Positions 59,282 through 61,393 of a stretch of 64,000 bases of DNA are shown here, in pieces. The notes beneath the pieces are model-generated. The model saw only the letters and a list, made by a program, of their open reading frames with translations. It was not told the DNA's origin and searched no databases. Within the stretch, counting starts at the first letter, position 1; each line of letters starts with the position of its first letter. Origin of the DNA: Candidatus Heimdallarchaeum aukensis (GTDB lineage Archaea; Asgardarchaeota; Heimdallarchaeia; Heimdallarchaeales; Heimdallarchaeaceae); NCBI GenBank assembly GCA_021513695.1, contig CP084166.1, forward strand, positions 224,001 through 288,000. The letters run 5' to 3'. Position numbers and translations under genes: made by a program.

Positions 59282-61393
59282 ATGAATGAAATAGAGTTAA
59301 GTTCTGAAAAACTAGAGGATTTTCAACAGAGGTGTATGGAAACTTTTTTGAAAAAAGAAAATTGCCTTATTTCTTCTCCTTCTTCTACAGGAAAAACATT
59401 TCTAGTTAAAGAATATATTAAAAATTACATTATAGAAAACTACTCAACTATTCTACGATCTCCTAAAAAAATGAAAATAGTGCTACTGTTTCCTTATAAG
59501 GCGATTGCTATACAAGAATTTAACTCACTAGTCGATTTTGCAGAAAAAAAGATGATCAAGATATTCTTATCTGTTGGAGGAGTAAAGTTAAACAAAGAAA
59601 CAGTAATGGAAGCAAATATTATTGTTGGAACATTTGAAAAGTTTTACTTCATTTTGAATCTATTCCCTGAAATTCAAAAGAACTTGAAAATATTGGTAAT
59701 AGATGAATTTCACTTTTTAGGTTATAATAGGGGAAAAGTGATAGAAAGTATATTATTAAAAGTTAAGGAAAACAAAAATACACAGATTATTCTTTTATCC
59801 TCATCAATCGGGAATCCTGAGGAAATAGCAAGTTGGTTAGGCTTTAAACTTTTGCAATATAATAAACGCTTAGTACCGTTGGAATTGAATATAAAAAAAA
59901 TTGAAAAATCTCTTATACAAGAAATATTTTCAATCAGCAAAGCTAACTTACCTGCTATTATATTTCAAAACTCAAGATCTAAAGTAGAAAAATTAGCTCT
60001 AGAATTAGCAAAAAAAAGAAAAGATGTATTGATAAAGAATTTCGAAGAGTTTTTCGTAAATTCTCCTAACCTTATTTCAATAATGGAAGAAGTTTATTTC
60101 CCTGATAAACTAAAAGAAGCAATTTCAAAGAGAGTGGCTTATCATCATGCAGGTTTAAGTGATATAGTTAGAGTATTTGTAGAACAATTATTTCTTTCTG
60201 GAGAGATTGATTACTTGATTTCTACTTCCACTCTGTCAGCTGGAATAAATCTTCCAGCTAAAATGTCAATTTTTGTTATAGAAAGAAAACAATCTGAAGT
60301 TGATAATAATTTAATTTTTCAAATTCTGGGGAGAGCAGGAAGATTTGAGTTTCAAGATAAAGGAATAGGAATTCTATTAATAAGACCAGCTTATTTGAAA
60401 GAATATAGCGACAAACTTTTTGACCAAAGAGGAAAACCTATTTACAGTAGTTTAAAAAGCCAATTTTTTGACTATGATTTTTTGATCAAATATTTTCTGG
60501 TAGAAATCGCATTTTCTAAGGAACCTGTTTCAGTAAGGATAGAAGATTTATTAAAAAAAATCGAGAATTCACTATGGTTTTATAGTAACAAAGAAATATT
60601 CTTAGTATTTAACTCTAAAGATGTTCATTATGCACTTTTTTCTCAAGCCTACTCAAGTTTGGATTATGAAGAGATAGTTGATTATTATGAGAAATTAGAT
60701 GAAGCTTTTGGTATAAAGCCTTCTAATTTACAACTCGTTTCTAAGCAAGAAAAAGGCAAAGGTAACTTCTCTTTTATAATTTTAGAGAATGAAAAAAAAT
60801 ACAAAGTAATTATGAATTTAGAAAGAAGACAATGTTCTTGTCAGTCAAAGTACAGCAATTATCTTTGTAGACATCAGCGTTTTTTGATTAAGATGTATCC
60901 TTTCATGAAAGAATATTGGTTAAATAAATATGGAATAATCGATTGGCTGATCGATAATGGTTTTTTAGTTAGAAGCAAAGGAATGAAGGTTAATCCTACT
61001 TTATTGGGAAAAATTTCTGCAAAATTTTTTATTCACCCTTATTCTTTTCTTCATTTTCTTCATTTATTAATTATCTATCCTAACATTAACTTTTCCTCTT
61101 TTTTTACTAAAGTTGTTCTATTCGATGAACAAATAAAGAGAGATATTAAGTCAAATGAACTAACAAATATACAAGCTTTGCAAATATTTCAACTATTAGT
61201 AAAACAAGAACCATTAACAATATGCTCAAAATACAATATTTCAGACAGTCTATTAGAAAATTGGCAAGAAATATATACCAAGTACAAGAGTTTATTTTTT
61301 GAATTAAAGAAACTTATGGGAAAAAATCTAGCAAAAGGGAACTTTACAAATAATTTCCTCACGAAAAATGAAGTTGAAGAAACAATTCGTTAA
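59282..61393 (+). CDS. Ski2/Hel308-like SF2 (DExH) helicase with C-terminal SWIM-type zinc finger
   Basis: 703 aa. Motif I 'SSPSSTGKTF', II 'LVIDEFHFL' (DExH), III 'LSSSIGN', V 'ISTSTLSAGINLPA', VI 'QILGRAGRFEF'. 'RRQCSCQSKYSNYLCRHQ' matches CxCx8CxH. Confidence 0.8.
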   Translation: MNEIELSSEKLEDFQQRCMETFLKKENCLISSPSSTGKTFLVKEYIKNYIIENYSTILRSPKKMKIVLLFPYKAIAIQEFNSLVDFAEKKMIKIFLSVGGVKLNKETVMEANIIVGTFEKFYFILNLFPEIQKNLKILVIDEFHFLGYNRGKVIESILLKVKENKNTQIILLSSSIGNPEEIASWLGFKLLQYNKRLVPLELNIKKIEKSLIQEIFSISKANLPAIIFQNSRSKVEKLALELAKKRKDVLIKNFEEFFVNSPNLISIMEEVYFPDKLKEAISKRVAYHHAGLSDIVRVFVEQLFLSGEIDYLISTSTLSAGINLPAKMSIFVIERKQSEVDNNLIFQILGRAGRFEFQDKGIGILLIRPAYLKEYSDKLFDQRGKPIYSSLKSQFFDYDFLIKYFLVEIAFSKEPVSVRIEDLLKKIENSLWFYSNKEIFLVFNSKDVHYALFSQAYSSLDYEEIVDYYEKLDEAFGIKPSNLQLVSKQEKGKGNFSFIILENEKKYKVIMNLERRQCSCQSKYSNYLCRHQRFLIKMYPFMKEYWLNKYGIIDWLIDNGFLVRSKGMKVNPTLLGKISAKFFIHPYSFLHFLHLLIIYPNINFSSFFTKVVLFDEQIKRDIKSNELTNIQALQIFQLLVKQEPLTICSKYNISDSLLENWQEIYTKYKSLFFELKKLMGKNLAKGNFTNNFLTKNEVEETIR

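What the first reader, a model, noticed from the sequence alone, without database searches (positions are those of the whole stretch)
59282..61393. Short Hel308/Ski2-like DExH helicase fused to a C-terminal SWIM zinc finger
All SF2 motifs are intact (GKT, DEFH, motif V 'STSTLSAGINLPA' typical of the Ski2-like clade, QILGRAGR). At 703 aa the protein is shorter than Hel308, and it lacks Hel308's usual C-terminal HhH domain. Instead it carries 'CSCQSKYSNYLCRH' (CxCx8CxH), a SWIM finger of the kind seen in SWI2/SNF2-associated and MuDR-type proteins. This domain combination is uncommon.
Basis: partly seen in the sequence, partly recalled or inferred. Interest (0 to 1): 0.5.

Follow-up and report, generated by a model that had tools for sequence, protein, structure and literature searches.

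The report
Hel308-like helicase with internal SWIM finger
This is a real, intact Hel308-type DNA motor protein from an Asgard archaeon in which a zinc-finger (SWIM) module is inserted into the middle of an accessory domain rather than fused at the end; it sits in a gene cluster with recombination and membrane proteins that is conserved across Heimdall archaea and that I found described in no paper I could search.

Summary

The family occurs only in Heimdallarchaeia (22 species genomes). More distant Asgard helicases (Hermodarchaeia, Promethearchaeota, Hodarchaeales) carry a CxC...CxH insertion at the same WH site, one of them with a domain-5-like tail. The insertion is therefore probably older than the loss of domain 5.

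The gene lies in a conserved array: surface protein, two membrane proteins, RadB-like ATPase, 156-aa protein, 1051-aa protein, helicase, and usually a RadA-like gene plus a ~2100-aa surface protein.

Best reading: a Hel308-derived ssDNA translocase working in recombination-type DNA processing, with the SWIM as a partner- or DNA-docking module. The function is inferred, not shown. It is a new variant of a known kind, of moderate interest.

The parts
59282..61393 (+). Complete gene for the 703-aa SWIM-bearing Hel308-like helicase. It is 100% identical to a protein annotated only as 'DEAD/DEAH box helicase' from Ca. Heimdallarchaeum aukensis.
59309..59866 (+). RecA1 domain (about residues 10-195) with motif I (SSTGKT, residues 34-39), motif II (DEFH, residues 141-144) and motif III variant (SSS, residues 173-175).
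59879..60421 (+). RecA2 domain (about residues 200-380) with motif V (STSTLSAGINLPA, 314-326) and motif VI (QILGRAGR, 347-354). The spacer between motifs V and VI is only 23 aa.
60464..60616 (+). Winged-helix domain 3, first part (about residues 395-445). It aligns with Hel308 residues 421-450.
60617..60928 (+). Insertion of about 100 aa in the WH domain (about residues 446-549). It has two helices, three beta-strands, the Zn-ligand loop and two helices, and is absent from canonical Hel308-like proteins.
60728..60895 (+). SWIM-like core (residues 483-538): strands 483-490, 495-502 and 505-512, then helix 530-538. pLDDT is 84-93.
60833..60874 (+). CxCx8CxH signature CSCQSKYSNYLCRH. C518, C520, C529 and H531 are invariant in the family.
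60929..61075 (+). Winged-helix domain 3, second part (residues 550-598): helix 552-558, wing strands 562-565 and 569-572. 'NPTLLGKISAKFFIHP' aligns with Hel308 'APTKLGSLVSRLYIDP'.
61076..61321 (+). Ratchet-like helical domain 4 (about residues 599-680). 'ICSKYNISDSLLENW' aligns with Hel308 'ICAKYGIAPGDLRRI'. A distant relative (P0064) hits PF21280 at this position.
61322..61393 (+). Low-confidence tail (residues 681-703, pLDDT below 50) and the stop codon. There is no HhH domain 5.
56114..59269 (+). 1051-aa partner gene, 12 nt upstream. It lies directly upstream of the helicase in all 20 related loci that have upstream sequence. It has a partial P-loop-type match (PADLOC mad8, 9e-9, residues 458-558) and is otherwise an orphan.
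55586..56056 (+). Conserved 156-aa protein of unknown fold (invariant IRIDLA...F.EAENGL...HPQIY.PFC).
54890..55525 (+). RadB/KaiC-like P-loop ATPase, 211 aa (TIGR02237 RadB 2.5e-14, below its cut-off). Walker A is GPPASGKT.
52849..54909 (+). Two conserved membrane proteins: 471 aa with 2-3 TM-like segments, and 211 aa with about 4 TM-like segments.
46426..52791 (+). 2121-aa surface-type protein with an N-terminal hydrophobic segment and a C-terminal TM anchor. Its orthologs carry Big/MG/CarboxypepD_reg-type hits. In most other loci it lies downstream of the helicase, next to a RadA-like gene.
61432..63276 (+). 614-aa protein with an N-terminal TM segment. It is conserved in the cluster, and in most other loci it is the first gene.
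41578..42669 (+). RadA/Rad51-like recombinase paralog, 363 aa (Pfam Rad51 1.9e-51). It scores 230 bits against the RadA equivalog model, below the 259-bit cut-off. Its orthologs lie between the helicase and the giant gene in 14 loci.

Best explanation
The gene encodes a Hel308-derived superfamily 2 (Ski2-like) NTP-driven nucleic-acid translocase specific to Heimdallarchaeia. The order of its parts is: RecA1, RecA2, WH part 1, an insertion of about 100 aa containing a SWIM-type module with predicted zinc ligands C518, C520, C529 and H531, WH part 2, and a ratchet-like helical domain. [quoted passage not shown] That domain acts as a brake on the helicase and as the DNA-annealing element.

Shown: the anatomy, the conservation of the motif, the restriction of the family to Asgard archaea, and the operon context.

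Inferred: the protein tracks 3'->5' along single-stranded DNA like Hel308, using the WH/ratchet ring, but without the domain-5 brake and annealing function. It probably works as one subunit of a multiprotein machine encoded by the conserved array (RadB-like ATPase, 156-aa protein, 1051-aa protein, helicase, and usually a RadA-like recombinase). That machine would do recombination-type DNA processing.

The SWIM module projects from the WH domain. Its most likely role is a docking surface, either for one of the co-encoded Rad51-family ATPases or the 1051-aa protein, or for branched or duplex DNA. The precedent is the SWIM protein Shu2/SWS1, whose SWIM domain binds a Rad51 paralog, and HELQ, which binds RAD51 and the BCDX2 paralog complex.

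For: SWIM. The four ligand residues are invariant. Pfam SWIM hits 11 of 14 members, best E 6e-5, and one member passes the gathering score. The spacing n=8 lies in the typical 6-16 range (PMC5727457). The predicted three strands plus helix, with C-x-H at the start of the helix, fit a SWIM fold.

Context. Gene gaps run from -20 to 60 nt. The order is conserved in 22 species genomes and in loci L001-L005 and L010. A distant relative (P0065) sits in an overlapping operon with RadA, an XPD-like helicase and a giant surface protein.

Literature. HELQ binds RAD51 and BCDX2, and domain 5 is a brake and annealing element (PMC13623763). The Shu2 SWIM domain contacts the Rad51 paralog Shu1 (PMC5727457).
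Against: There is no biochemical evidence of any kind. The substrate (DNA or RNA), the polarity, zinc binding and the partners are all inferred.

The Pfam SWIM score of this protein itself is below threshold. I could not inspect the model coordinates to check the geometry of the four ligands. No SWIM-containing structure appeared among the fold-search hits.

The best sequence matches of the core include RNA helicases (Brr2, ASCC3/Slh1) ahead of Hel308. The ratchet region is only weakly similar in sequence, and the aromatic residue aligned with the Hel308 ratchet Trp is F/Y.

The spacer between motifs V and VI is the shortest seen (23 aa against 25-46), so the strand-separating beta-hairpin may be reduced.

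Half of the conserved neighbours are membrane or surface proteins, which a purely cytoplasmic repair role does not explain. The 156-aa, 1051-aa, 471-aa, 211-aa and 614-aa partners have no recognisable family.
Confidence: 0.6

Rival explanations
1. One reading: a truncated Hel308 whose C-terminal accessory domains were replaced by a terminal SWIM finger fusion.
For: The SWIM signature is real and conserved, and the HhH domain is absent.
Against: About 165 ordered residues follow the motif. They superpose on the WH and ratchet domains of Hjm, Hel308, Brr2 and Slh1. The sequences flanking the insertion align to the two halves of the Hel308 WH. The length equals that of Hel308.
Confidence: 0.03
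2. It is an RNA helicase of the Brr2/ASCC3/Slh1 type that acts on ribosomes or RNPs. In that case the SWIM would bind RNA or a ribosomal partner, and the neighbouring genes would be unrelated to its function.
Against: There is no Sec63 unit (HhH plus FN3) and only a single cassette. The tight, conserved linkage is to RadB-like and RadA-like genes. An XPD-like helicase and RadA lie in the operon of the distant relative. The score differences between ASCC3/Brr2 and Hjm are small.
Confidence: 0.1
3. It is the motor of an anti-virus or anti-plasmid defence system, comparable to Hachiman HamB or to helicase-nuclease systems. The 156-aa protein or another neighbour would be the effector.
For: PADLOC HamB models match at up to 2.6e-34. 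The 1051-aa protein partly matches mad8 at 9e-9. Solved HamB is hit at 1.6e-9. IS elements lie nearby (rve integrase at 37854-38792; TnpB in L010).
Against: The HamB matches cover only the generic RecA core. No HamA or other defence partner was detected in the neighbours. The array is syntenic in 22 species genomes at about 35-40% identity, which looks like vertical inheritance rather than a patchy defence island. There are no relatives in viral contigs.
Confidence: 0.1
4. The whole array is a membrane-anchored DNA translocation and recombination machine, for DNA uptake or cell-to-cell DNA exchange. It would be analogous in logic to bacterial competence (ComFA helicase with a zinc finger, plus a channel, plus RecA) or to the crenarchaeal Ced system. 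The helicase would pull ssDNA in, and the RadA/RadB-like proteins would load on it.
For: In one conserved same-strand array, surface proteins (2121 aa with a C-terminal anchor; 614 aa) and polytopic membrane proteins co-occur with ATPases, a helicase and a recombinase paralog. The same mixture is found in the distant L006 operon. The comparison with ComFA and Ced comes from my own knowledge and was not tested here.
Against: No component matches any known competence, Ced or conjugation family. The ATPase-like domain of the 1051-aa protein has a deviant Walker A (GDKK). Adjacency alone does not prove a joint function.
Confidence: 0.15
5. The SWIM module is only a structural zinc clip that stabilises an enlarged WH domain, with no binding role of its own.
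For: The invariant residues are mainly the four ligands and a few neighbours (S525, N526, Q532, R533). No partner is known.
Against: The surrounding insertion is well conserved over about 100 aa. An insertion is maintained at the same site in at least three divergent Asgard helicase groups, with different loop lengths. SWIM domains elsewhere mediate protein or DNA contacts (PMC5727457).
Confidence: 0.2

Closest known systems
Archaeal Hel308/Hjm and the eukaryotic HELQ / POLQ helicase-like domain (Hel308-Ski2 subfamily)
   Different: An insertion of about 100 aa with a SWIM module splits the WH domain. There is no HhH domain 5. The spacer between motifs V and VI is the shortest seen (23 aa). 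Scores are far below the NCBIfam equivalog cut-offs (131-161 bits against 887-1216). The ratchet sequence is strongly diverged.
Asgard Hel308-like helicases of the P0020 type (Promethearchaeota, Hodarchaeales) and of the P0060/P0065 type (Hermodarchaeia and unnamed)
   Same: They carry a CxC...CxH insertion at the same site in the WH domain. P0065 lies in an operon with RadA, a large upstream protein and a giant surface protein.
   Different: The P0020 type has a longer ligand loop (CxCx19-25CxH), a recognisable PF21280 domain 4 and, in P0020 itself, a C-terminal tail that aligns with the HhH domain. The P0060/P0065 type has a 33-aa spacer between motifs V and VI. Identity to the window protein is only about 25-29%.
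Mtr4 / Ski2 arch (insertion) domain
   Different: The arch is a helical stalk plus a KOW/beta-barrel with no zinc site. Those enzymes are RNA helicases of the exosome pathway. I did not test whether the insertion point is the same loop.
Shu2/SWS1 (ZSWIM7) SWIM proteins of the Shu complex
   Same: They have a CxCxnCxH SWIM domain and a functional link to Rad51 paralogs. Here the link is genomic only, through the RadB-like and RadA-like genes in the array.
   Different: Shu2/SWS1 are small stand-alone proteins without a helicase. Shu2 has n=59 (PMC5727457). I found no detectable sequence or fold match to them.
SWIM fingers associated with SNF2-type ATPases (the original description of the SWIM domain; recalled from memory, not tested here)
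   Same: A SWIM module is combined with an SF2 ATPase in one polypeptide.
   Different: Those are SNF2-family dsDNA translocases with a terminal SWIM. Here it is a Ski2/Hel308-type enzyme with the SWIM nested inside the WH domain.

Membership tests
Hel308/HELQ (five-domain Hel308-Ski2 helicase) | Tandem RecA1-RecA2 core with intact SF2 motifs I, II, V and VI | tested here: met
   GKT, DEFH, STSTLSAGINLPA and QILGRAGR are present and invariant. Pfam finds DEAD and Helicase_C.
Hel308/HELQ (five-domain Hel308-Ski2 helicase) | Winged-helix domain 3 following RecA2 | tested here: met
   It is present but split by the insertion. Both halves align to the Hel308 WH. The C-terminal model also matches MarR/PadR WH proteins.
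Hel308/HELQ (five-domain Hel308-Ski2 helicase) | Ratchet domain 4 | tested here: met
   Met at the fold level: 183-196 residues superpose on the WH plus ratchet of Hjm, Hel308, Brr2 and Slh1. The sequence match is weak. PF21280 is hit in relatives P0064 and P0020 but not in this protein.
Hel308/HELQ (five-domain Hel308-Ski2 helicase) | [quoted passage not shown] | tested here: not met
   There is no HHH Pfam hit. The protein ends about 20 residues after the last ratchet helix. Canonical relatives continue with the HhH.
Hel308/HELQ (five-domain Hel308-Ski2 helicase) | Score above the NCBIfam equivalog cut-off (NF040935 Hel308, PRK00254, PRK01172, PRK02362) | tested here: not met
   131-161 bits against cut-offs of 887-1216.
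Hel308/HELQ (five-domain Hel308-Ski2 helicase) | Strand-separating beta-hairpin between motifs V and VI | tested here: inconclusive
   The spacer is 23 aa against 25-46 in relatives. The model shows a strand at 328-333 and then a helix at 342-349, with no hairpin. Some Hel308-like proteins have spacers of only 25-27 aa.
Hel308/HELQ (five-domain Hel308-Ski2 helicase) | ssDNA-dependent ATPase with 3'-5' translocation or unwinding | not testable with these tools
   This needs biochemistry.
SWIM zinc finger (PF04434) | CxCxnCxH signature with typical spacing | tested here: met
   CSCx8CRH at residues 518-531. The typical n is 6-16 (PMC5727457).
SWIM zinc finger (PF04434) | Conservation of the four ligands in homologs | tested here: met
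   They are invariant in 18 of 18 family members, and present in the distant relatives P0060, P0064, P0065 and the P0020 type.
SWIM zinc finger (PF04434) | Pfam gathering score (19.6 bits) | tested here: inconclusive
   The window protein scores 16.3-17.6 bits. P0018 scores 21.5 bits and passes. 11 of 14 members hit at E<=1, best 6e-5.
SWIM zinc finger (PF04434) | Beta-strands followed by a helix that carries the C-x-H, with a tetrahedral zinc site | tested here: inconclusive
   The predicted secondary structure fits: three strands, then helix 530-538 starting at C529/H531, with pLDDT 84-93. Model coordinates could not be inspected, and zinc binding is not testable here.
ASH-Ski2 (archaeal Ski2-like RNA helicase) | N-terminal domain with four conserved Cys (zinc finger) | tested here: not met
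   Only C18 and C28 lie N-terminal, and they are not conserved as a 4-Cys unit. The family definition comes from PMC10946056.
Brr2/ASCC3/Slh1 cassette | Sec63 unit (ratchet plus HhH plus FN3/IG) after the WH; tandem cassettes | tested here: not met
   There is no Sec63 Pfam hit, only a single cassette, and the chain ends after the ratchet.
Hachiman HamB | Helicase encoded next to a HamA (DUF1837) nuclease | tested here: not met
   The HamB models match the core only. No HamA hit was found in any of the six neighbours scanned.
Mtr4/Ski2 arch-bearing helicases | Arch domain (stalk plus KOW/beta-barrel; PF13234) inserted in the WH | tested here: not met
   An insertion in the WH is present, but there is no PF13234 hit, and the inserted module is a SWIM-type unit. 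Whether the insertion loop is the same was not tested.

The most novel reading that the evidence does not exclude
The helicase is the motor of a previously unrecognised, Asgard-specific, membrane-anchored DNA-handling machine. In this reading a giant surface protein, a second surface protein and two membrane proteins capture or conduct DNA at the cell envelope. The SWIM-bearing Hel308 derivative, the 1051-aa P-loop-like protein and the RadB-like and RadA-like ATPases then translocate and recombine that DNA. This would be a DNA uptake or exchange system, or an envelope-coupled surveillance system. The SWIM would dock a Rad51-family partner, which prefigures the eukaryotic pairing of SWIM proteins (SWS1/Shu2) and of HELQ with RAD51 paralogs.
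Probability: 0.15. Interest if true: 0.8.

Novelty: new variant of a known kind. Interest (0 to 1): 0.5.

Why it matters
Hel308/HELQ enzymes are described as having a fixed five-domain plan, and published surveys of archaeal Ski2-like helicases recognise Hel308, ASH-Ski2 and Brr2 groups. None of the papers I could search mentions a SWIM insertion (PMC13623763, PMC10946056, PMC8813620).

This work defines a lineage in the archaea closest to eukaryotes that has rebuilt the plan. A predicted zinc-binding module is nested in the substrate-recognition WH domain, and the brake/annealing domain is deleted.

The lineage is locked into a conserved operon with two Rad51-family ATPases and several orphan proteins. 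That gives a concrete, testable entry point to two questions: how Hel308-type motors are coupled to Rad51 paralogs, and what the unexplained mixture of surface, membrane and DNA-enzyme genes in Heimdallarchaeia does.

If only the architecture holds, this is a useful annotation and family definition. If the operon is one machine, it is a new cellular system.

Tried and rejected
- I considered and rejected the terminal-fusion anatomy.
- I considered and rejected membership in ASH-Ski2, the Brr2/Sec63 cassette type and Hachiman HamB (see the membership tests).
- hhalign of the family against Hel308-like proteins returned only the segment up to residue ~465 (profile column 477), so it could not align the post-insertion part.
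- The profile search of PDB sequences with the C-terminal alignment gave only E=1.2 to Hel308. It is useful for collinearity, not for significance.
- Foldseek of the C-terminal model against the PDB gave no hit at E<=0.001, although the top 20 were all Hel308, Hjm or POLQ. No SWIM structure was retrieved.
- A homology search with the C-terminal half of P0065 returned nothing.
- The partner proteins gave nothing interpretable. The 1051-aa protein has no PDB sequence hit, only spurious eS1 hits with a profile, no Pfam, NCBIfam or PHROG family, and an inconclusive hhalign to the 780-aa protein of L006 (E=0.014, probability 3%).
- The 156-aa protein has no hit and no match to the small L006 proteins.
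- The description of mad8 in the MADS preprint gave no functional information.
- Literature searches for SWIM-helicase combinations in Asgard archaea found nothing relevant.
- The viral-contig scan found no relatives.
- The idea that the beta-hairpin is lost was downgraded to 'inconclusive' after I measured spacers in relatives.
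Full report
**Observation**

Translation of sub-ranges confirms DEFH (nt 59702-59713), STSTLSAGINLPA...QILGRAGR (nt 60221-60343) and CSCQSKYSNYLCRH (nt 60833-60874). Pfam recognises DEAD (3e-20) and Helicase_C (2e-8). It gives a sub-threshold SWIM match at residues 507-536 (16.3 bits against a cut-off of 19.6). The protein is 100% identical to a database entry annotated only as 'DEAD/DEAH box helicase' from Candidatus Heimdallarchaeum aukensis, on a 3.08-Mb contig.

**Is the SWIM signature real?**

The protein has six Cys, and three of them lie in the motif. A CxCx5-25CxH pattern arises in only 10 of 200,000 shuffles of the sequence.

A homology search gave a sharply bounded family of 18 full-length or nearly full-length proteins at 37-83% identity. 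The next hits drop to below 30% identity over half the length. In the alignment of the 18, C518, C520, C529 and H531 are invariant, as are S525, N526, Q532 and R533. Pfam SWIM is hit by 11 of 14 members (best E 6e-5), and one member passes the gathering score (P0018, 21.5 bits).

The spacing n=8 falls in the typical 6-16 range given for SWIM domains (PMC5727457).

**Anatomy**

Two AlphaFold2 models were built from family alignments:
- the full-length protein (pLDDT 84.2, pTM 0.84);
- residues 375-703 alone (pLDDT 85.0).

After RecA2 the chain forms helices at 398-441. Two extra helices follow (446-453 and 462-475), then three beta-strands (483-490, 495-502, 505-512), the ligand loop, and a helix at 530-538 that begins at C529/H531. 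After another short helix (540-546) comes a helix-strand-strand-helix unit (552-581), and then a bundle of helices up to residue 678. The last ~20 residues (684-703) have pLDDT below 50.

At the sequence level, a profile of the C-terminal region hits only Hel308 (9b15) in the PDB. The score is not significant (E=1.2), but the match falls into three collinear pieces:
- the first WH helices (Hel308 421-450);
- the WH wing (Hel308 'APTKLGSLVSRLYIDP' against 'NPTLLGKISAKFFIHP');
- the ratchet (Hel308 'ICAKYGIAPGDLRRI' against 'ICSKYNISDSLLENW').

hhalign against an alignment of canonical Hel308-like proteins runs to residue ~465 of the window protein (profile column 477), ending inside the insertion's first helices and just ahead of its beta-strand/SWIM core. 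A MAFFT alignment shows two things. The ~100 residues between 'SLWFY...' and 'YGIIDWL...' have no counterpart in canonical proteins. And the family stops right after the ratchet, where canonical proteins continue with the HhH motif 'VRGVGRARARVL..AG'.

The conclusion is that the SWIM is an internal insertion in WH domain 3. Domains 3 and 4 are retained, and only domain 5 is missing. The insertion roughly compensates for the lost domain 5.

**How wide is this architecture?**

An exhaustive HMM search of 1.84 billion representative proteins with the C-terminal profile found only 19 proteins at E<=0.001. Nine of them, at E<=1e-30, are all this family. A scan of one genome per GTDB species found the family in 22 genomes. 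All are labelled Heimdallarchaeota or unclassified archaeon/Asgard, and they include the closed genome of H. endolithica at 81% identity. No relative was found in viral contigs.

Three distant hits of the exhaustive search have the same plan with different loop lengths:
- P0060, Hermodarchaeia, CSCx9CSH;
- P0065, CSCx10CKH;
- P0064, CGCx6CRH, which also hits PF21280 'archaeal helicase domain 4'.

A further group is typified by P0020. It gave 26 hits; 24 of the 26 carry a conserved CSCGFxNG...FEFCxH motif (CxCx19-25CxH), which in P0020 aligns at the same WH site. Among the hits that carry a name are Promethearchaeota, Lokiarchaeota and Hodarchaeales. This group keeps PF21280. In P0020 itself there is also a C-terminal tail that aligns with the HhH domain.

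The insertion therefore seems to be an old Asgard feature of a Hel308-like clade. The Heimdall family is a reduced derivative: it lacks domain 5, and its spacer between motifs V and VI is the shortest seen (23 aa against 25-46). Whether the strand-separating hairpin is truly lost remains open.

**Context**

In the window, ten genes from 44359 to 63276 lie on the same strand, with gaps of -20 to 60 nt. BLAST and tblastn comparisons show a conserved array. Its order in most of the 22 species genomes is:
1. 614-aa protein with an N-terminal TM segment
2. 471-aa membrane protein
3. 211-aa polytopic membrane protein
4. RadB/KaiC-like ATPase
5. 156-aa protein
6. 1051-aa protein
7. the helicase
8. 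RadA-like gene
9. surface protein of about 2100 aa

The 1051-aa gene is directly upstream of the helicase in all 20 loci that have upstream sequence. The RadA-like and giant genes lie downstream in 14 loci. In the two Heimdallarchaeum species the order is permuted: the giant gene is upstream and the 614-aa gene downstream.

The RadA-like protein scores 230 bits against the RadA equivalog model, below the cut-off of 259, so it is a paralog-like form. The RadB-like protein has an intact Walker A but is far below the RadB cut-off.

The distant relative P0065 lies in an operon of overlapping genes. That operon has a RadA that passes the cut-off (282.8 bits), an XPD-like helicase, a 780-aa protein directly upstream, and a 2596-aa surface protein.

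The 1051-aa, 156-aa, 471-aa, 211-aa and 614-aa proteins match no curated family. The only lead is a partial match of the 1051-aa protein to the PADLOC model mad8 (9e-9). Around that match the protein has a 'VIDDAELFF' Walker-B-like motif and a deviant 'GDKK' in place of a Walker A.

**Mechanism (inference)**

Hel308/HELQ enzymes are ssDNA-dependent 3'-5' translocases. Their WH domain recognises substrate, their ratchet domain 4 guides ssDNA, and their domain 5 acts as a brake and annealing element. HELQ binds RAD51 and the BCDX2 paralog complex (PMC13623763). SWIM domains are thought to mediate protein or DNA contacts, and in Shu2 the SWIM domain binds the Rad51 paralog Shu1 (PMC5727457).

Given the intact motor, the retained WH/ratchet ring, the missing brake and the operon, I propose the following. 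The protein is an unbraked Hel308-type ssDNA translocase that works inside a complex with the co-encoded proteins. The SWIM insertion on the WH domain is the docking point for a partner or for branched DNA.

My confidence in each layer is:
- the architecture: about 0.9;
- a role in DNA recombination or processing: about 0.55;
- the SWIM as a dock for a Rad51-family partner: about 0.25.

**Rivals**

- An RNA-helicase role of the Brr2/ASCC3/Slh1 kind is suggested by the ranking of sequence hits. It lacks the Sec63 unit and does not fit the context.
- A defence role is suggested by the HamB and mad8 model hits. Those matches are to generic cores, no HamA-type partner is present, and the array looks vertically inherited.
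- The surface and membrane half of the array is not explained by a simple repair role. This keeps open the more novel reading of an envelope-coupled machine for DNA uptake, exchange or surveillance.

**Novelty**

None of these sources mentions a SWIM or zinc insertion in Hel308-type helicases or this gene array:
- a 2024 survey of archaeal Ski2-like helicases, which defines Hel308, ASH-Ski2 and Brr2 groups and notes that the arch domain of Mtr4/Ski2 is inserted in the WH (PMC10946056);
- a 2026 Hel308/HELQ review (PMC13623763);
- the Heimdallarchaeum genome paper (PMC8813620);
- a 2025 paper on Asgard replication proteins (PMC12680538).

The searchable library is limited, so prior description elsewhere cannot be excluded. 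I rate the finding as a new variant of a known kind, with interest 0.5.

Noticed in passing
window 44359-63276 (also 41578-42669); loci L001, L002, L004, L005, L010, L011-L032: A same-strand array of about 9 genes is conserved in 22 Heimdallarchaeia species genomes. It mixes surface and membrane proteins with a RadB-like ATPase, two orphan proteins, the helicase and a RadA-like paralog. I found it described in none of the papers I could search.
   Followed up: partly
window 56114-59269: A 1051-aa orphan protein always lies directly upstream of the helicase. It has a P-loop-like region with a deviant 'GDKK(T/I)R' in place of Walker A, 'VIDDAELFF', and an 'ILST.FPS...N.II.NLRS' segment that by eye resembles HerA/FtsK-type motifs. 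The only database lead is PADLOC mad8 (9e-9). There is a weak RPA_C/WH-like hit at 623-676.
   Followed up: partly
window 55586-56056: A 156-aa conserved protein with invariant 'IRIDLA.Y....IIF.EAENGL..HPQIY.PFC'. The D...E.E pattern could be a nuclease-like site, but no family or structure match was found.
   Followed up: partly
window 41578-42669 and 46426-52791; L001, L004, L010, L012-L032: In most loci a RadA-like recombinase paralog (below the RadA cut-off) lies immediately upstream of a membrane-anchored surface protein of about 2100 aa with Big/MG/CarboxypepD_reg-type hits. A recombinase paired with a giant surface protein is odd and unexplained.
   Followed up: partly
window 39411-41219: A 602-aa protein matches the helicase part of Hef nuclease (NCBIfam 4.8e-15), although Pfam gave no hit at E<0.01. 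It is another SF2 helicase just upstream of the RadA-like gene.
   Followed up: no
window 37854-38792: An IS-type transposase (rve integrase core plus HTH domains) lies at the upstream edge of the region. In L010 an IS605 OrfB/TnpB sits inside a block of about 8 kb that separates the helicase from the RadA-like and giant genes.
   Followed up: no
L008 8001-9344 (P0078); P0073-P0097: Many P0020-type Asgard helicases are called only as C-terminal halves of 410-490 aa. In a 77-kb contig, about 1.25 kb upstream of P0078 has no called gene. This could reflect split genes, frameshifts or an unusual feature of the N-terminal half.
   Followed up: no
L006 4950-6890 and L005 7059-8852: An XPD-like (DEAD_2) helicase lies near the SWIM-helicase in two divergent loci (blastp 1.4e-32 between them). 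This adds to the DNA-repair flavour of the neighbourhood.
   Followed up: no
P0062 (86 aa, JGI metagenome): A stand-alone 86-aa protein matches only the beta-strand plus SWIM part of the insertion (CSCx10CKH). This hints that the module also exists as an independent small protein.
   Followed up: no
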